DNA from: a virus
Reading direction: 5' to 3' (one strand)
Length of the DNA stretch: 34,343 bases
UHGV virus genome: UHGV-0071249
Made by a program: the position numbers and the translations under genes. This document shows, piece after piece, positions 5,176 through 34,343 of the stretch; the first letter of the stretch is position 1; every line of letters begins with the position of its first letter. Below the pieces are notes generated by a model. That model saw only the letters and a list, made by a program, of their open reading frames with translations. It had not been told where the DNA came from and did no database searches.

Positions 5176-5622
5176 ATGGATACAGTAGAAGAACTTAATG
5201 GAACATACTTCTATGATGGTTCATCCAATCTTAGTGCAGGGGAGCTATTCTTCTGGATCATGGTTGATGAAACATTAGATCACTTTGGTATATCAGACAT
5301 AGCCGCAGTTGCAGGGATCTACCTTGGTTCGAATAATGTCACGGTAGCAGGTAAGCTGGCAGGGGCAACACCCGGCACATCCGTTGTGTCAATCTATTCC
5401 AGGGAATTATTCAGAGGACGAATGATGCCAGTACGAATGGCAACTTGGATTGGATTCCCGCCAAATGCAAAACGAGTTATGACACAGCGATTGGGTACAT
5501 TCGTTGGCAGGACTATTCCTCTTGTCGGTTGGATTGTACTCGCAGCAGACGTTTCTATCATCAGTTTCAAAGCAGTCAATAAGTACAATACAATCGCCCA
5601 TCCTTCAGATCGTCTATGGTAG
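5176..5622 (+). CDS. Small protein with two glycine-zipper-like hydrophobic segments (148 aa); candidate Hcp-associated cargo
   Basis: Segments DIAAVAGIYLGSNNVTVAGKLAGATPG and TIPLVGWIVLAADVSIISF; first gene of a tight three-gene set ending in Hcp. Confidence 0.55.
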   Translation: MDTVEELNGTYFYDGSSNLSAGELFFWIMVDETLDHFGISDIAAVAGIYLGSNNVTVAGKLAGATPGTSVVSIYSRELFRGRMMPVRMATWIGFPPNAKRVMTQRLGTFVGRTIPLVGWIVLAADVSIISFKAVNKYNTIAHPSDRLW

Positions 5623-5629
5623 GTACTGA

Positions 5630-5986
5630 ATGAACGATTCAGATAACATAGAGCAGCAGGTCATGAATTGGTATAACGAGAACTGGAATGGGCGTGTTTT
5701 TCCATTTTTCAGGAAGCCATCATTGACGCTGGAAACAAGCCTATCAACAGGCAAGTATCCTTGGGCAGATGAAGATGCGATAGAGATACTTGATGATTAC
5801 TTTGGGAAGTTCAATGTTGAGCGTAAAAATTTCACATTTGGCAAGTACTGGCCCAATGAAGAAGTAGTACTTCCATTGAATTTTTTACGATCAAAAGATA
5901 ATAAATGGGAATGGATTGAACCAGAACCATTAACACTCAAAATGCTTGTCGAATCAGCTAAGGCTGGTCGCTGGCTTTACGATTAA
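5630..5986 (+). CDS. Small acidic Trp-rich protein (118 aa); candidate immunity or adaptor protein
   Basis: Starts 7 bp after the previous stop; W-rich (NWYNENWNG, KYPWADED, KWEWIEPEP); no family assigned with confidence. Confidence 0.55.
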   Translation: MNDSDNIEQQVMNWYNENWNGRVFPFFRKPSLTLETSLSTGKYPWADEDAIEILDDYFGKFNVERKNFTFGKYWPNEEVVLPLNFLRSKDNKWEWIEPEPLTLKMLVESAKAGRWLYD

Positions 5987-5998
5987 AAGGAGTTTTCA

Positions 5999-6484
5999 AT
6001 GGCAATCCCCGCACACTTATGGCTTAAAGATGATGGTGGAGCATTAATTAAGGGATCATGCGATGTAATGGATCGAGAGGGAAGTGTGGAAATTATTGGT
6101 TTCGGTCATGGCCTACATATTCCTACCGATAATAATACTGGTAAAATTACTGGAACTCGAATCCATACACCGATGGTATTAGAAAAGGAATTTGATAGCT
6201 CTACACCGTATCTCTATAAAGCAGTTGCTACAGGGCAATCGCTTAAAAGTGCCGAAATTAAATGGTACAAGATTAATGATGCAGGCCAGGAAGTAGAGTA
6301 CTTCAATATGCTTCTTGAAGGTGTCAAAGTCGTTGCTGTAACCCCGATAATGTACAATACAAAGACCGTTGAAAAATGTAACCACATGGAGCGTGTAGAA
6401 TTACGCTACGAAAGAATTACATGGAAGTACTGTGACGGTAATATCCAGTATACTGATGCGTGGAATGAACGAGCGACAGCATAG
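5999..6484 (+). CDS. hcp: Hcp (TssD) family type VI secretion tube / effector-chaperone protein
   Basis: 161 aa; N-terminus MAIPAHLWLKDDGG...IKGS.DV.DREGS and later segments (TGK.TGTR.H.P, PYLYKAV.TGQ.LKSAE.KWY.INDAGQEVEYF, LRYE.ITW, WNER) match my recollection of enterobacterial Hcp1 sequences; perfect AAAAGGAG ribosome-binding site 6 nt upstream. Confidence 0.75.
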   Translation: MAIPAHLWLKDDGGALIKGSCDVMDREGSVEIIGFGHGLHIPTDNNTGKITGTRIHTPMVLEKEFDSSTPYLYKAVATGQSLKSAEIKWYKINDAGQEVEYFNMLLEGVKVVAVTPIMYNTKTVEKCNHMERVELRYERITWKYCDGNIQYTDAWNERATA

Positions 6485-6486
6485 TT

Positions 6487-6509
6487 AAAAGGGGCATGTA
6501 CCCCCTTAA
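6487..6509. terminator. Hairpin (AAGGGG-CATGTAC-CCCCTT) between the convergent hcp and 4-TM genes
   Basis: Stem-loop read from the sequence; TTTT follows 3 nt downstream on the plus strand; overlaps the stop codon of the minus-strand gene. Confidence 0.45.
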
Positions 6510-7195
6510 CTTTTATGGCTTTCGTATGTTGGCTCTCGAAATTTAAATATGTGATGTTTCTTACCCATCGAAATAAATTCCTGCGATACTGTTTTACGAC
6601 AAGAAAATACAGTAATAGGAACTGATAGAGAATAAATCACAGTGGAGAGTAATACTATGAGAGGGTAGTGAGAACTAATTAAAATAAGAGACGTAATGAA
6701 ACAAGCAAGCCATAGCATAATCATAAAAGCACTAAGGAATGTGTTTATATTAGAAACCGAGGGACGAAGGTCGTTTATGGTTTTATAGAAAAGCACTTTA
6801 TATAAATTCCCTGTAACATAATATTCTAATTTATCAATTACTAACTCCCAGTTTTCTTGCCAATATTTGCTACCGATATTCACATAATAGAAGCATATTG
6901 AAAATACGGTTCCAATTATTGATATGAATGGTGTATAGGTGATATATTCCGTATGTGTGAAAAGATAACCATAGGCAGCAGTTATAACTGTGAAAAAAGC
7001 AAAAAAATAAGTTGCTCGCTTCCAGTACAAATCAATCTCAAATTTTCTTATATCATGAGCTTTATCCAGTGCGGCTATTAGTTTTTTATGATCTAAAGAA
7101 TCTTCCATAATAATTGTACTGACACCCAAGAATTCTTGGAAAAATTCTTTATCCTCATCTTTTATTACAAATGGTTCTTTTTTTGTATTATCCAT
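6506..7195 (-). CDS. Integral membrane protein with about four TM helices (229 aa), function unknown; candidate immunity or defence effector
   Basis: Soluble N-terminal 60 aa, then hydrophobic helices (FFAFFTVITAAYGYLF; FISIIGTVFSICFYYV; FLSAFMIMLWLACFITSLILI; LIVLLSTVIYSLSVPITVF) with a YWQENWE linker; convergent with hcp. Confidence 0.6.
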   Translation of the reverse strand: MDNTKKEPFVIKDEDKEFFQEFLGVSTIIMEDSLDHKKLIAALDKAHDIRKFEIDLYWKRATYFFAFFTVITAAYGYLFTHTEYITYTPFISIIGTVFSICFYYVNIGSKYWQENWELVIDKLEYYVTGNLYKVLFYKTINDLRPSVSNINTFLSAFMIMLWLACFITSLILISSHYPLIVLLSTVIYSLSVPITVFSCRKTVSQEFISMGKKHHIFKFREPTYESHKS

Positions 7196-8164
7196 AATTT
7201 ATTCTTACAAGATAAAAGGCCAGTATACAATCAGATTTCACTCTCTGTATACTACGCGAAAGTACTCCCCCTTGCTAATGGGTAGGTTTGTTGGGTGTAA
7301 GGGGGTAGTACTCAAAACGGCAGTTCTTCTTGTCCACAAAATCAACCATCTTCATGAAGCCTTGAAATTTCCCTCACCAGATAAGTTAACCCTTCCAGTA
7401 CTGAAGCGATCGGGTACTCCATGATCAAGTAGAAGCAACCTCGCTGAACTGTACCGAATCAGTACTTCCTTTGTCCATTCTGGAAGAAAACACGATCACC
7501 AAATGCAAACTTGTCCAGTACTGAACCGTAGTAACAAACCCTGAATTCACGCTCGCCGTGGGTGAAGGTTTGTACCCCTCGGACGATTGCTGGATCGTAG
7601 CCATTTTTACTCATTTGATGCTCACCATAGGTGTAATGAATATGCATACAGCACGCCTATGTGTTTTTAAAAATCCAGCAAATCACAATCTATCGATAAA
7701 ACTGTTCAAAAATGCATTGAATGATCTATAAAAGTGATCAATATTGATGACTTACGGTCAAATGAGGTCATTAAATGAACATCCAGTACTGGGCTGTACC
7801 GATTACGACTCTTAATGGGCAGTTGCTCGGAGTGGAAATCCAGCCGCAGATAGAAATACACGGCTGTCGGCTCATTGCTGGGGATGTACTGAAGTGGCAA
7901 CTACACGTAACGGAGTGAAGTATTACCGGCCTCAGTTCCAGAGTGATTGCGGTCGCATCTATAATCCAATCTACCAGATGGACAATGGCAGTACTACGTG
8001 TCTAATACGCGAGGAAAGGATTCAAGAATGTATTAATATAGCTAAACAATTATTGAGGTCAAATCATTAATTGATTAAATATATTGGTCATGGTAAAAAT
8101 AATTGAATTACATATGATATCCTCATGCTACTGGTGCTAATAACATAGCATGAGGATATATACT

Positions 8165-9286
8165 TCAACGCACCATGGCTAATGTTCTGGAAATTCGCAT
8201 GATTTCTTTTTCAATATCATCTAAAACAGGTAGTGATTTTCTGCTTCGTTCAGCAATTTCTTGCAATATATATCTGTTCAAATAATTGTTTACATTTTTA
8301 GGATCAAGATTTTCAGGTGTGGGAACAACACAACATTGCCAATAAAAAATCTCATCTTCGAAATGAGTTAGCCATTTGGAGTGATATCTTTCTTTCGATT
8401 TTTTCTTATTAAGCACATAAATGCTGGCTGCAGCTATCACATCAGCAATTTGTATACCATGCGTGACTTTAGAATCAGAAAGGATTATGGGCTCAGATAG
8501 TTTGAATGTGATCGGGATTTTTTTATTATTAAAGGTCTCGAACACAATTTCATCATTACCTATCATCTCATTGAATGCGTCTTGTTGGGTAATTAATGGT
8601 TTTGAACTATCACATATAGCTCTCAATGTACCAAACTTACTACTCATATCGCATAAGAGATTATAAAGAGAAGTCGTTGTCAAATCTAACAACCATTTAT
8701 CAACCCCAGTGCCCTCGAGACCTTCATATTCCTCTTCAATTATTGAAATGTTATGCTTGGCGAAATCATGAATGTCCATCATAATTTCAGAGTTTTTAGT
8801 ACCAATAACTGGTTCGATAAAACTATTAACTAATATTTTACCTCGTGAAAAATCTTCAAATCGAGAATGCAATAGTTCAGAATACTCATCCTTAGCTATT
8901 AAAGAAAAATACATTATATTGGATATGAATAGGTGGAATTTAAGGTTGTAAAATATTGAGCTTTTAGCTGCTAATACTGGCTCGAAAATATATTCAAAGA
9001 ATTTTCCTGAAAGGGCATATTTCTTTTCGTTAACAACCACACGCATACGTCCACGGAAATGATTAAGTATCTCATCTACGGCTGGTTGTAATCTCTTGCT
9101 ATTAACGAGAGTGCTACCTTTTAGCTCTTCGGCTGCGATCGAGTACTTTTGTATTATGTAATCTACAAACTGTTTACTTTCCTCTTCATCAGTCACGACT
9201 GCAGCGTAACTAAAAAAAGGCTGATCTTTTGAAAGTAAGTTATTACCTGTAAACCCTGATTCGTCGAAGTAGACATTTTTTACCAA
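8165..9286 (-). CDS. DUF3800-like protein (373 aa), antisense cargo gene immediately upstream of the late operon
   Basis: N-terminal VYFDESG and C-terminal GIQIADVIA motifs, which I recall as the two signature motifs of DUF3800; TTG start with GAAGGA ribosome-binding site about 9 nt upstream. Confidence 0.6.
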   Translation of the reverse strand: MVKNVYFDESGFTGNNLLSKDQPFFSYAAVVTDEEESKQFVDYIIQKYSIAAEELKGSTLVNSKRLQPAVDEILNHFRGRMRVVVNEKKYALSGKFFEYIFEPVLAAKSSIFYNLKFHLFISNIMYFSLIAKDEYSELLHSRFEDFSRGKILVNSFIEPVIGTKNSEIMMDIHDFAKHNISIIEEEYEGLEGTGVDKWLLDLTTTSLYNLLCDMSSKFGTLRAICDSSKPLITQQDAFNEMIGNDEIVFETFNNKKIPITFKLSEPIILSDSKVTHGIQIADVIAAASIYVLNKKKSKERYHSKWLTHFEDEIFYWQCCVVPTPENLDPKNVNNYLNRYILQEIAERSRKSLPVLDDIEKEIMRISRTLAMVR

Positions 9287-9495
9287 TTTGGATATTCCTT
9301 CTTGAACGGCAATGTGTATGTGCTTGCAATGTTACATTGTAATAATGATCAAGTAAAATGAAATGTAAGTGCTTTTAATCAACCTAATTAAGTGAAACTA
9401 ATAATTTAGGTACTCCTCCAGCCTGATTATCAACGCGAGTTTTCGGCACCGATTGCTTTCAATTGTATGTGACATTTTAGATGTACACAAAACAT

Positions 9496-15901
<6,406 letters not shown>

Positions 15902-33285: not shown

Positions 33286-34128
33286 TTAAACCAGTTCTTG
33301 TGTTATTACTGTTTCGAAGTAATGATTTACTACATCAGCTATACCAGTTTCAGTATTGTTACCTATTACTAAATCAGCACAGGCTTTTACTTCATCAACC
33401 GCGTTACCCATAGCAACACCCAAGCCAGCATTTTTCAACATGCTTAGATCGTTGTAATTATCACCAAAGGCTATTACCTGGCTCATAGATAAACCTTGTG
33501 ATTCTACCCATTGTGCCAGGCGTTTACCCTTACTGTTTCCGGCTTGTGCTATGTCTACTTGATCGTGCCAAGACCATTCGCAAGCAAGGCCAAGCTCACG
33601 CTCTACTATCTGACCAAAGCTATGTAGTTTTTCAGTATCAGAATCAGTAAGGGCGAATTTCCAGATAGCATCAACATTTTGCGATGCTTCACTAAGAGAG
33701 GGTACTTGTTTGAAGATTGGACGTTGTGACTCTGGAAGAGACTTAGCCCAATTTTCTGTACGGATAATATGCCCCGTTGGTTCTTGATAGAACATGACAT
33801 CATCGGCATACATCAGACTATGAACATTGTAACTATCAAGTAGGTTCACTAATTGAATAGCTTGTTCTGGTTGTAATGGGTCTGAGGCAATAACTCTTTT
33901 TTCGGCGTAATCGTACAATAAAGCACCATTACAACATATAGCTGGTGTATTAAGTTCTAATGCCTGATAAAAAGGATGGATGGCTACAAAGTGCCGTCCG
34001 GTAACTATGACAACCTTTGCCCCTGATTTACGGGCATTCTGTAGGGCAGATAGTGAGGCTGGTAAGATAGTTTTTTCTGGCGTCAATAAAGTGCCGTCCA
34101 GATCAAGGGCGATTACCTGATAGTTCAT
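33286..34128 (-). CDS. Host Cof-type HAD-superfamily (HAD-IIB) sugar/phosphate phosphatase
   Basis: MNYQVIALDLDGTLL (DxDGT motif I), VIVTGRH, and C-terminal GDNYNDLSMLKNAGLGVAMGNA (motif IV); AGGTGA ribosome-binding site before ATG 34128; more G+C-rich than the prophage. Confidence 0.8.
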   Translation of the reverse strand: MNYQVIALDLDGTLLTPEKTILPASLSALQNARKSGAKVVIVTGRHFVAIHPFYQALELNTPAICCNGALLYDYAEKRVIASDPLQPEQAIQLVNLLDSYNVHSLMYADDVMFYQEPTGHIIRTENWAKSLPESQRPIFKQVPSLSEASQNVDAIWKFALTDSDTEKLHSFGQIVERELGLACEWSWHDQVDIAQAGNSKGKRLAQWVESQGLSMSQVIAFGDNYNDLSMLKNAGLGVAMGNAVDEVKACADLVIGNNTETGIADVVNHYFETVITQELV

Positions 34129-34343
34129 GTAGTGATTCACCTGATTTTGGTATGTAGTTTCCTCGATAGTACACCGCTTTGCGGCTACGACGAAACAAGG
34201 TGAAGAGTCTTGTTGAGCACTGGAACAGCGTTGGATACTGGCGTATTGCCTTGGATGGGCGTAAATATTGTAATTAGCAATACACACTCAAATAGGTGCC
34301 ATTACAGCAAATAGCAGGTGTATCCAGCGCCAGCGCCTGATAA

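What the first reader, a model, noticed from the sequence alone, without database searches (positions are those of the whole stretch)
7196..8164. About 1 kb of G+C-richer non-coding DNA with a long bulged stem-loop and relic reading frames
No convincing gene lies between the 4-TM and DUF3800 genes. The stretch is visibly more G+C-rich than the surrounding phage DNA. It contains an 11-bp inverted repeat (AGTACTCCCCC ... GGGGGTAGTACT, 7261-7312) with a loop of about 29 nt, two exact copies of TCCAGTACTGAA (7394 and 7514), and short frames that look like gene relics (minus 7459-7647; plus about 7775-7912). It could be a decayed cargo gene, a structured non-coding RNA, or a regulatory region for the DUF3800 gene.
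Basis: seen in the sequence. Interest (0 to 1): 0.45.

Follow-up and report, generated by a model that had tools for sequence, protein, structure and literature searches.

The report
Dead SOS gene module plus conserved hairpin
This kilobase is the wreck of three prophage accessory genes (two stop codons, one 542-bp deletion), but it keeps intact a hairpin with an invariant 14-base loop that related prophages place just upstream of interchangeable cargo genes.

Summary
In detail: there is no intact gene, G+C is 41-43% against 31-34% in the flanking genes, and the hairpin at 7261-7312 and the TCCAGTACTGAA repeats are present.

An intact syntenic copy (IMG/VR contig, locus L023) shows what decayed. 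One relic is a 102-aa gene on the minus strand, which is preceded by a LexA (SOS) box in every intact relative. Here it has two TGG>TGA stops, a 6-nt deletion and a damaged box. The second is the first ~42 codons of a degenerate EAL-domain gene. A 542-bp deletion between GCAGNTACAC repeats fuses it to the third relic, the last 55 codons of a small lipoprotein gene.

The hairpin is not noise. Six different stems occur in relatives, all complementary, around an invariant loop AACAAACCUACCCA, while the adjacent gene is only 62-69% identical. In one group of loci a second copy sits 2.2 kb downstream, and the two copies bracket cargo genes.

I read the hairpin as a boundary element (terminator or insulator plus promoter-proximal signal) of a cargo slot, here serving the intact 8xMP membrane-protein gene. 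That function is inferred, not shown.

Nothing in Rfam matches. The region does not regulate the DUF3800 gene, because it lies 3' of that gene.

The AGTACT repeats belong to a prophage-wide 6-fold excess of AGTACT/CAGTACTG that I cannot explain.

The parts
7196..7260 (-). Leader between the hairpin and the start codon of the 8xMP gene (ATG 7195-7193). It contains the inverted repeat AGTATACA (7222-7229) / TGTATACT (7246-7253) and a -10-like hexamer (TATACT on plus, TATACA/TAGTAT on minus) 7 nt from the hairpin base.
   Evidence: Sequence. Promoter-like matches TATACA-18-TATACT on both strands. A -10-like hexamer sits at the same distance from the hairpin in all stem types. The leader is conserved at 88% in about 30 E. 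coli genomes.
7261..7312 (-). Conserved stem-loop (HP1). Arms are 7261-7271 and 7301-7312, with a bulge at 7306. The invariant loop motif is 7279-7292 (AACAAACCTACCCA on the minus strand, TGGGTAGGTTTGTT on the plus strand). On the minus strand its 5' arm overlaps the TGA stop of the dead 102-aa gene.
   Evidence: z -4.2. There are six stem versions with the same loop in relatives. 87 of 90 stem cells are canonical, with 16 extra pair types. The motif occurs once in the window.
7312..7614 (-). Pseudogene of the 102-aa SOS-box gene family (phrog_2100-like). It stays in frame throughout but has stop codons at 7459-7461 and 7342-7344 (both TGG>TGA relative to L023) and a 6-nt in-frame deletion.
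   Evidence: Translation. Alignments to L023 and L002. Family searches.
7636..7651 (-). Damaged LexA box. It reads CTGT-ATGCATAT-TCAT where intact relatives have CTGT-N8-ACAG (or CCAG), 21 nt upstream of the ATG instead of an intact box at the equivalent place.
   Evidence: for the window. One search shows canonical boxes 30-37 nt upstream of the ATG in all 11 intact loci listed (10 different sequences; L059 and L060 are identical). One search shows one in phage Cartapus.
7652..7774 (.). Divergent control region between the 102-aa relic (minus) and the EAL-like relic (plus). It is about 90% identical to the intact locus.
   Evidence: Alignment A5.
7775..7901 (+). 5' stub (about 42 codons) of a degenerate EAL-domain gene (176 aa in L023, 169 aa in L002).
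   Evidence: The intact orthologue aligns with Pfam-EAL-positive neighbours of distant family members (BLASTP E 1e-16).
7902..7906 (.). Deletion junction. A single TACAC remains where L023 has two copies (GCAGCTACAC ... GCAGGTACAC) 542 bp apart.
   Evidence: Alignment A5, columns 761-1302. The same gap is seen against L002.
7907..8070 (+). 3' remnant (last 55 codons, through stop 8068-8070) of a small lipoprotein gene (96 aa in L023, 90 aa in L002).
8117..8159 (.). Perfect 14-bp hairpin (ATATCCTCATGCTA N15 TAGCATGAGGATAT) between the lipoprotein relic and the DUF3800 stop (8165). It is a probable terminator for the convergent genes.
   Evidence: I3. It is conserved in L023 and L002. It was not picked up as a canonical terminator because it has no adjacent T run.
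6506..7195 (-). Intact flanking cargo gene for a Pfam 8xMP (PF24838) octameric membrane protein. It is the gene directly downstream of the hairpin on the minus strand.

Best explanation
The stretch is a dead copy of a three-gene accessory module that related prophages carry intact next to their terminase genes.

In intact copies, a LexA (SOS) box precedes a 102-aa gene of unknown function, and a degenerate EAL-domain gene and a small lipoprotein gene run divergently from it. In this window all three are inactivated (shown):
- the 102-aa gene has two nonsense mutations and a 6-nt deletion;
- the LexA box has lost its right half-site;
- a 542-bp slippage deletion between 10-bp direct repeats (9 of 10 identical) fuses the 5' stub of the EAL-like gene to the 3' end of the lipoprotein gene.

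The higher G+C is simply the composition of these genes (39-50% in the intact copy).

One part is still intact: a stem-loop that begins at the stop codon of the dead 102-aa gene and lies 65 nt upstream of the intact 8xMP membrane-protein gene. Selection keeps its stem paired while the stem sequence changes, and keeps 14 loop bases invariant (shown).

My committed reading, which is inferred (about 45% for this specific mechanism), is that it is a composite boundary element of a cargo slot. As RNA on the minus strand it would end or insulate the SOS-driven transcript. As DNA, its loop motif lies about 24-27 bp upstream of a conserved -10-like hexamer that would serve the downstream cargo gene. 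Its invariant patch would also supply the short homology at which cargo genes are swapped.

This would explain why the hairpin and leader survive here, and in about 30 E. coli genomes where the upstream gene is gone.
For: Decay:
- L023 is an intact syntenic locus with the same gene order: TerS, DUF3800, lipoprotein, EAL-like, 102-aa gene, hairpin, 8xMP, Hcp, DUF1493, STM2901.
- The alignment to the window is about 90% identical outside one 542-bp gap bounded by GCAG(C/G)TACAC.
- The translation shows two in-frame TGA codons at Trp positions.
- A second intact locus has three annotated genes in the same place.

SOS control:
- CTGT-N8-ACAG (or CCAG) lies 30-37 nt upstream of the ATG in all 11 intact loci listed (10 different sequences), down to about 40% protein identity.
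- A homologue in phage Cartapus (hhalign probability 98.9%) sits in an operon that follows a LexA box and includes DinI.
- The window's box reads CTGT-N8-TCAT.

Hairpin:
- Stem types differ completely but always pair; z-scores are -4.2 to -8.2 for the first-copy stems and -3.6 for the second copy in L047.
- 87 of 90 canonical cells in ten pairs, against 44-67% when the 3' arm is slid.
- The loop motif is identical in 11 variants while the genes are 62-69% identical in nucleotides.

Boundary role:
- The gene after the hairpin varies: 8xMP, a GTPase, a transmembrane protein, IS3, or none.
- L002 and L005 have 96% identical genes but different stems and different downstream DNA.
- L047-L052 carry a second copy with a sixth stem, in the same orientation, 2165 nt downstream. 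The two copies bracket a GTPase gene and an HNH gene, and the second lies 77 nt upstream of another gene.
- About 30 E. coli genomes keep only window 7211-7404 (88% identity); in the one examined (NCTC86) it lies next to a diverged 8xMP gene.
- Distant members of the 102-aa family have an ordinary terminator or another hairpin at this position.
- A -10-like hexamer lies at a fixed distance in all types.
Against: - No transcript data exist, so termination, promoter activity and even the functional strand are untested.
- The hairpin has no U-tract and a 20-29-nt loop, so it is not a canonical intrinsic terminator.
- The -35 region of the putative promoter is poor and not conserved, and the hexamer is nearly palindromic, so it scores equally on both strands.
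- Mismatch types do not favour one strand (4 C·A against 3 G·U). One related hairpin with a different loop (L053) folds far better on the antisense strand (-31.7 against -14.1 kcal/mol).
- Only one locus type has two copies, so 'cassette bracketing' rests on a single lineage.
- In L039 no gene follows the hairpin in the same direction.
- Why 14 loop bases should be invariant is not explained by a terminator role alone.
Confidence: 0.8

Rival explanations
1. The hairpin is a protein-recognised RNA signal of the lambda nut/boxB kind. It would be transcribed on the minus strand from the SOS promoter, with its invariant loop bound by a phage protein (possibly the 102-aa protein itself) that lets RNA polymerase or ribosomes proceed into the downstream cargo gene only after DNA damage.
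For: - A covarying stem with an invariant loop is the classic signature of a loop-specific RNA-protein contact.
- Its place right after a small regulatory-looking gene and before a second, weaker hairpin followed by UUUUAU resembles nutR-tR1.
- The second copy in L047 lies in the same orientation upstream of another gene.
- The 102-aa family has an invariant C-terminal ELPF and no known fold, so its function is open.
Against: - No boxA-like sequence is visible, and the loop is 20-29 nt, far larger than boxB.
- In about 30 E. coli genomes and in this window the hairpin survives although the 102-aa gene is dead, so that protein cannot be the obligatory partner there.
- The second copy in L047 is separated from the SOS promoter by a convergent gene pair and a strong palindrome.
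Confidence: 0.15
2. The hairpin is the 5' stem-loop of a short antisense RNA made from the plus strand and overlapping the 3' end of the 102-aa mRNA. It would act like lambda OOP RNA against cII, or like the recognition loops of plasmid and toxin antisense RNAs.
For: - On the plus strand a -10-like hexamer (TATACT, TATAAT or TATACA) ends 5-8 nt before the hairpin base in every stem type (TATACA-18-TATACT).
- Several variants have C·A mismatches on the sense strand that become G·U on the antisense strand (L002, L005, L006), and the related hairpin in L053 strongly prefers the antisense strand.
- The G/U-rich loop contains YUNR-like turns (reading).
Against: - No terminator follows on the plus strand.
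- The -35 is weak.
- Other variants (NCTC86, L045, L047) favour the sense strand.
- A cis-antisense pair does not need an invariant loop, since complementarity is automatic.
- The second copy in L047 overlaps no 102-aa gene.
Confidence: 0.12
3. The hairpin is a DNA recombination site, folded or duplex, at which a site-specific recombinase inserts and excises cargo cassettes. The 14-16-bp invariant core would be the crossover region.
For: - Two direct copies with a 16-nt identical core bracket a 2.2-kb cargo segment in L047-L052.
- The downstream gene content varies.
- A breakpoint between 96%-identical genes and unlike stems lies exactly here.
Against: - No recombinase gene is consistently adjacent. 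The only one in the window is the large serine integrase 5 kb away.
- The anatomy is the reverse of known sites. In integron attC, and in core sites of tyrosine or serine recombinases, the arms are conserved and the centre is short or variable.
- In L030 homology with L023 runs through the leader and the first three codons of the next gene, which fits homologous rather than site-specific exchange.
Confidence: 0.08

Closest known systems
PeSL (promoter-early stem-loop) cassettes of T4-type phages (Arbiol et al. 2010, PMC2839356; Comeau et al. 2014, PMC4122927)
   Same: Both are short composite stem-loop plus promoter-like motifs found in the variable, cargo-rich part of a phage genome. Both sit next to genes that differ between close relatives, can bracket such genes as direct repeats, and are proposed to mediate modular exchange by recombination between copies (for the papers; here).
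   Different: - The host here is a small temperate prophage, not a T4-type phage.
- There are one or two copies per genome rather than dozens.
- Here the stem varies and the loop is invariant, whereas PeSL stems follow a consensus.
- Only a -10-like hexamer is conserved, and no near-consensus sigma-70 promoter was found.
- No experimental evidence of circle formation exists for this element.
Lambda nutR/boxB and other loop-specific antitermination hairpins
   Same: Both are hairpins placed just after a small early gene and ahead of downstream genes, with loop sequence conserved while the stem can change.
   Different: The loop is 20-29 nt instead of 5 nt. There is no boxA, no N-like gene has been identified, and no link to Nus factors is known.
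SOS operons of temperate phages (LexA-box-controlled tum/DinI-type operons of P2/186-like phages)
   Same: The 102-aa family always has a LexA box. Its homologue in the P2-like phage Cartapus lies in an operon that follows a LexA box and includes a DinI-family gene near the genome end.
Degenerate EAL-domain proteins such as YdiV (named from my own knowledge, not tested here)
   Same: The relic's intact orthologue is a short EAL-like protein that falls below the Pfam threshold but is homologous to true EAL proteins in the same genomic position.
   Different: It is about 50 residues shorter than an EAL domain. Only the first ~42 codons survive in this window, so nothing functional remains.

Membership tests
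Any Rfam RNA family | Covariance-model score at or above the family's gathering threshold | tested here: not met
   There were 0 hits at gathering score over the whole window. With permissive filters on 7100-8250 there were only 5 hits with E 2.7-9.6, all far below gathering, and none on the hairpin.
Intrinsic (Rho-independent) terminator | G+C-rich stem | tested here: met
   The stem has 11 pairs including five G-C pairs at the loop end.
Intrinsic (Rho-independent) terminator | Short loop (3-8 nt) and a U-tract directly after the stem | tested here: not met
   The loop is 29 nt (about 20 nt if the inner pairs of other variants are counted). The stem is followed by UUUCGCG on the minus strand and CAAAACGG on the plus strand. 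The terminator scan did not report it.
LexA-regulated (SOS) gene | LexA box CTGT-N8-ACAG in the promoter region | tested here: not met
   The window has CTGT-ATGCATAT-TCAT at 7651-7636. The 11 intact loci listed (10 different sequences) have a canonical box 30-37 nt upstream of the ATG. The family meets the criterion; this copy no longer does.
EAL domain (Pfam PF00563) | Profile match above the gathering score and an intact catalytic signature | tested here: inconclusive
   The window keeps only ~42 codons. The intact orthologues (169 and 176 aa) give no Pfam hit, only a weak NCBIfam PRK11596 hit (1.2e-5, below cut-off). They do align with Pfam-EAL-positive proteins at the same locus position (E 1e-16, with a gap of about 45 residues).
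PeSL promoter-terminator cassette | Stem-loop joined to a sigma-70-type promoter | tested here: inconclusive
   The stem-loop is present. A -10-like hexamer is conserved at a fixed distance, but the -35 matches only 3-4 of 6 and is not conserved.
PeSL promoter-terminator cassette | Many dispersed copies flanking variable ORFs in a T4-type genome | tested here: not met
   There is one copy in the window, two in L047-L052 and one in the other loci. The host element is a ~33-kb temperate prophage with a serine integrase.
Integron attC site | R''/R' core sequences (RYYYAAC ... GTTRRRY) at the base of the stem, a variable terminal loop, and an integron integrase nearby | tested here: not met
   The only GTTRRRY-like string (GTTGGGT) lies in the loop, not at the base. 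The loop is the conserved part and the stem the variable part. No integron integrase was found in the window.
Lambda-type nut site | boxA (CGCTCTTA-like) followed by a boxB hairpin with a pentaloop | tested here: not met
   No boxA-like sequence occurs within 7196-7330 on either strand, and the loop is 29 nt (reading).
3'-overlapping antisense RNA (lambda OOP type) | Promoter on the opposite strand plus its own terminator, giving a discrete short RNA | tested here: inconclusive
   A plus-strand -10-like hexamer lies 7 nt before the hairpin, but no terminator follows on that strand. Transcripts cannot be examined with these tools.

The most novel reading that the evidence does not exclude
The hairpin is a previously undescribed phage regulatory RNA or DNA motif. 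Its invariant 14-nt loop would be read by a specific factor, coupling the SOS response to expression, or to exchange, of whichever cargo gene (membrane-pore-like 8xMP, GTPase and others) sits in the slot. That would make it a portable 'damage-gated cargo socket' shared by an uncultured lineage of enterobacterial prophages. The same lineage's unexplained 6-15-fold genome-wide excess of CAGTACTG could be a second, independent novelty.
Probability: 0.3. Interest if true: 0.6.

Novelty: new variant of a known kind. Interest (0 to 1): 0.4.

Why it matters
In this window the answer is mostly ordinary: a prophage is losing accessory genes, and the loss of its only LexA-box gene may be part of its domestication.

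Three things go beyond that:
- There is a small gene family with no known domain or fold (32 representative clusters among 1.8 billion protein representatives) that has a LexA box in every intact locus examined. It is therefore a candidate switch or effector of prophage induction.
- A compact hairpin with a covarying stem and an invariant loop is absent from Rfam and marks where cargo and defence-like genes are exchanged. It could serve as a search handle for cargo slots in this prophage lineage, and as a test case for how such slots are insulated and expressed.
- A lineage-wide palindromic 8-mer excess may point to an unknown DNA-binding, modification or repair activity.

Tried and rejected
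- Rfam, at gathering score and with permissive filters: nothing. No tRNA or tmRNA.
- BLASTN of the stretch against phages and plasmids: no match.
- PADLOC on all neighbouring proteins: no defence-system match.
- A trans target for the loop: no complementary site in the window beyond chance.
- Selenocysteine or read-through signal at the TGA that touches the hairpin: rejected, because the L002 type has TGA-TAG in tandem and L047 ends in TAG.
- Antisense small ORF starting at the ATG in the loop (MGRFV...): rejected. There is no Shine-Dalgarno sequence, the five codons are invariant even at synonymous sites, and the rest merely mirrors the sense gene.
- cos site: rejected, because L047 carries two copies 2.2 kb apart.
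- SlmA binding sites as the explanation for AGTACT: rejected, with GAGTACTC seen once against CAGTACTG 11 times.
- Codon usage as the explanation for AGTACT: rejected, because sites fall in all three frames and are denser in non-coding DNA.
- Literature searches for 8xMP/RipA, for the loop motif and for CAGTACTG returned only irrelevant hits.
- MAFFT could not align the different stems in register, so the pair table was built by hand from each variant's own fold. That biases it towards pairing.
Full report
**Setting**

The window is an almost complete prophage of about 33 kb.
- A large serine recombinase gene lies at 61-1914 and a HAD-family hydrolase gene at 33286-34287. In E. coli G3/10 the same prophage sits in a truncated ybhA.
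- Terminase, portal, head and tail genes run from 9531 to about 30000.
- Its large terminase is at most 33% identical to that of any isolated phage.
- Its structural region has no megablast match in 5,426 complete E. coli genomes.
- The 969-bp stretch itself is 100% identical to an unannotated stretch of E. coli G3/10, which carries a derivative of the same prophage cut down by IS elements, inserted in ybhA.
- The finding lies between an intact gene for a Pfam 8xMP 'octameric membrane protein' (6506-7195, minus) and an intact DUF3800 gene (8165-9286, minus).

**Check of the observation**

- G+C is 40.7% (42.8% for 7261-8070), against 31% and 34% in the flanking genes.
- The hairpin AGTACTCCCCC / GGGGG-T-AGTACT with a 29-nt loop folds significantly better than shuffled sequence (z -4.2 on the minus strand).
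- TCCAGTACTGAA occurs twice exactly, and a third time with one change.

**What the reading-frame relics are**

A related E. coli locus (AREA_C483, L002) has three annotated genes in the same gap beside an orthologous DUF3800 gene. An IMG/VR contig (L023) has the whole neighbourhood in the same order as the window, with all genes intact: TerS, DUF3800, a 96-aa lipoprotein, a 176-aa EAL-like protein, a divergent 102-aa protein, the hairpin, 8xMP, Hcp, DUF1493 and STM2901.

Aligning the window to L023 gives about 90% identity, interrupted by one 542-bp gap.
- The gap is bounded in L023 by GCAGCTACAC and GCAGGTACAC, and the window keeps a single TACAC at 7902-7906. This is the signature of slippage or microhomology-mediated deletion.
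- It removes the last three quarters of the EAL-like gene and the first 41 codons of the lipoprotein gene.
- What remains is the stub at 7775-7901 and the tail at 7907-8070.

On the minus strand the 102-aa gene is readable in one frame from ATG 7614 to TGA 7312.
- Two Trp codons have become TGA (7459-7461 and 7342-7344).
- Six bases are missing.

The higher G+C is the native composition of these genes: 46%, 50% and 39% in L023, against 32-34% for the neighbouring cargo genes.

**What the dead genes were**

The 102-aa protein belongs to a very small family.
- It forms four 90%-identity clusters in 5.8 billion proteins and 32 representative clusters in 1.84 billion with a profile search.
- It has no Pfam, NCBIfam or PADLOC match. 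Its only hit is PHROG 2100, of unknown function.
- The C-terminus ELPF is nearly invariant.

Every intact member I could place on DNA has a canonical LexA box (CTGT-N8-ACAG, or CCAG) 30-37 nt upstream of its start codon. That covers 11 loci (10 different sequences) down to about 40% protein identity. A homologue in the P2-like phage Cartapus (hhalign probability 98.9%) lies in an operon that follows a LexA box and includes a DinI-family gene. The family is therefore SOS-controlled; that is inferred from sequence, with no expression data.

In the window the right half-site is lost (CTGT-N8-TCAT).

The 176-aa protein is a shortened, degenerate EAL domain.
- It has no Pfam hit.
- It gives BLASTP E 1e-16 against Pfam-positive EAL proteins that occupy the same divergent position next to distant members of the 102-aa family.
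- The association of the EAL gene with the 102-aa gene holds in L002, L007, L023, L030, L039, L053 and L057.

**The hairpin**

On the minus strand the 5' arm starts at the last base of the 102-aa gene's stop codon. Pattern scans of the viral, genome and metagenome collections recovered the element in E. coli, Scandinavium, Buttiauxella and many uncultured contigs.

The stems fall into five unrelated sequence types at this position:
- AGUACU(A)CCCCC / GGGGGAGUACU
- (A)GCACUUCCACC / GGUGGAAGUACU
- CGCGUUCCCC / GGGGAACACG
- AAUUCACGCC / GGCGUGAAUU
- CAUGUUCCUACCC / GGGUAGGAACAUG

Each forms a strong hairpin, with z-scores from -4.2 to -8.2. In a hand-made register of the ten loop-proximal pairs, 87 of 90 cells are canonical with 16 additional pair types. 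Sliding the 3' arm gives 44-67% canonical cells and 4-6 additional types. That table is built from each variant's own fold and so leans towards pairing.

The loop core AACAAACCUACCCA is identical in all 11 variants, although the adjoining genes are only 62-69% identical in nucleotides between types. Structure and loop sequence are thus both under constraint.

No Rfam family matches.

**Where the hairpin belongs**

Several observations tie it to a gene boundary, and to the downstream gene, rather than to the 102-aa gene alone.
1. The gene after it varies: 8xMP (window, L023, NCTC86 type), a GTPase with DUF697 (L047), a membrane protein (L030), IS3 (L002), or a convergent gene (L039).
2. L002 and L005 have 96% identical 102-aa genes but different stems and different downstream DNA, so a recombination breakpoint lies at the hairpin.
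3. About 30 complete E. coli genomes share 88% identity with the window only over 7211-7404. That span covers the leader, the hairpin and the last ~90 nt of the dead gene. In NCTC86 it lies directly upstream of an 8xMP gene whose protein is clearly more diverged than this stretch.
4. L047-L052 carry a second exact copy of the motif (16 identical bases) 2165 nt downstream, in the same orientation. It again sits in the loop of a hairpin, with a sixth stem (GCGGUGUU.. / ..AACACCGC, z -3.6), 77 nt upstream of another gene. The two copies bracket a GTPase gene and an HNH gene.
5. More distant members of the 102-aa family have an ordinary intrinsic terminator (L057), another palindrome (L061) or nothing at this position.
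6. A -10-like hexamer (TATACT, TATAAT or TATACA) lies 24-27 nt after the motif in every type.
7. 8xMP genes outside this prophage lineage lack the motif.

**Most likely mechanism**

I think the element is a composite boundary signal of a cargo slot. It would be a stem-loop that ends or insulates the SOS-driven transcript, fused to the upstream part of a weak promoter for whatever gene sits downstream. Its invariant patch would also serve as the short homology at which cargo is exchanged.

The closest described concept is the promoter/stem-loop (PeSL) cassettes that mediate modular shuffling in T4-type phages (PMC2839356, PMC4122927).

- Shown: conservation of pairing, invariance of the loop, variable downstream genes, the bracketing copies, and the fixed -10-like hexamer.
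- Inferred: termination, promoter activity, recombination at the element, and which strand or molecule is functional.
- Against: there is no U-tract; the -35 is poor; mismatch types do not pick a strand; one related hairpin with a different loop (L053) folds much better on the antisense strand; and nothing yet explains why 14 loop bases must stay unchanged.

Rivals are a nut-like protein-recognised RNA signal, an OOP-like antisense RNA, and a site-specific recombination site. Transcript-end mapping and stem/loop mutant reporters would separate them.

- The 'decayed gene' reading is correct, and I can now give details: three genes, the exact lesions, and intact references.
- The 'structured RNA' reading is correct in that the hairpin is selected, but not in the sense of an RNA gene.
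- The 'regulatory region for DUF3800' reading is wrong, because the stretch lies 3' of that gene. Only the perfect 14-bp hairpin at 8117-8159 is likely to serve it, as a terminator.

**The AGTACT repeats**

The excess is prophage-wide.
- There are 73 sites against about 12 expected, CAGTACT 38 against 2, and CAGTACTG 11 against 0.4.
- Sites fall in all three reading frames and are denser in non-coding DNA.
- Related prophage loci show 5-15-fold excess, while the E. coli core flank shows none.
- Within the window the density is lowest in the 8xMP gene (0 sites), the DUF3800 gene and the integrase region, and highest in the finding (7.2 per kb). This suggests that the dead module is old resident DNA of the lineage and that the two flanking genes are recent arrivals.
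- I have no explanation for the motif. It is not the SlmA site, and it is not a codon-usage effect.

**Overall**

This is an ordinary case of prophage gene decay. It contains one small, well-supported and undescribed conserved element, and it sits within a lineage with an unexplained sequence signature.

Noticed in passing
whole window; also L023, L029, L039, L056, L057: The palindrome AGTACT is 6.4-fold over-represented (73 against about 12 expected). CAGTACT is 19-fold and CAGTACTG 28-fold over-represented. Sites occur in all three reading frames and in non-coding DNA. Related prophage loci show 5-15-fold excess, while the E. coli core flank and unrelated viral loci show none. Density is near zero in the 8xMP, DUF3800 and integrase segments. 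I found no explanation.
   Followed up: partly
window 1-34343: The window is a nearly complete ~33-kb prophage with a large serine recombinase (61-1914) at one end and a HAD-family hydrolase gene (33286-34287) at the other; in E. coli G3/10 the same prophage lies in a truncated ybhA. Its large terminase is at most 33% identical to any isolated phage. Its structural genes have no match in 5,426 complete E. coli genomes. G3/10 holds a derivative cut down by IS1 and IS3. No obvious repressor or replication genes were seen.
   Followed up: partly
window 5176-6484: A type VI secretion 'orphan' set (STM2901-family, DUF1493, Hcp) is carried as cargo inside the prophage next to the terminase end. The same set is present in L023, and a DUF1493 gene in L039.
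   Followed up: no
window 9496-9525: A 12-bp G+C-rich palindrome (AGTCCTCCTGA...TCAGGAGGACT) followed by TTTTT ends 5 nt before the start codon of the small terminase gene. It could be a terminator for upstream transcription or part of the packaging (cos) region.
   Followed up: no
L047 5659-5696: A perfect 16-bp palindrome (AATAGTCAGTACTGGA N6 TCCAGTACTGACTATT) lies between the convergent GTPase and HNH genes. Each arm carries CAGTACTG, so the over-represented motif also builds terminator-like hairpins.
   Followed up: no
L059 5991-6063 and 6411-6483: Two 73-nt copies (86% identical) of a long hairpin element (GCGGTAGCACATA ... TATGTGCTACCGC AAACG) lie 420 nt apart. The base of the stem and the trailing ACCGCAAACG resemble the second hairpin copy of L047 (GCGGTGTT ... 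AACACCGCAAACG). This hints at a wider family of boundary hairpins in these cargo regions.
   Followed up: no
L053 3313-3380; L053 2081-4978: A distant member of the 102-aa family (about 42% identity) is followed by a hairpin with AGTACT in both arms but a different C-rich loop. It folds far better on the antisense strand (-31.7 against -14.1 kcal/mol). The locus keeps the EAL, 102-aa and 8xMP association, with an extra 285-aa gene.
   Followed up: partly
L062 (Escherichia phage Cartapus) 3460-4288: A LexA box (TACTGTAAATATAAACAGTG) precedes an operon of a 62-aa gene, a DinI-family gene and an 86-aa homologue of the 102-aa family. This places the family in the SOS operon position of P2/186-like phages.
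   Followed up: partly
L003 (E. coli NCTC86) 7681-9399: The 572-aa hypothetical protein next to the 8xMP locus ends in a run of about 25 Pro-Gln repeats.
   Followed up: no
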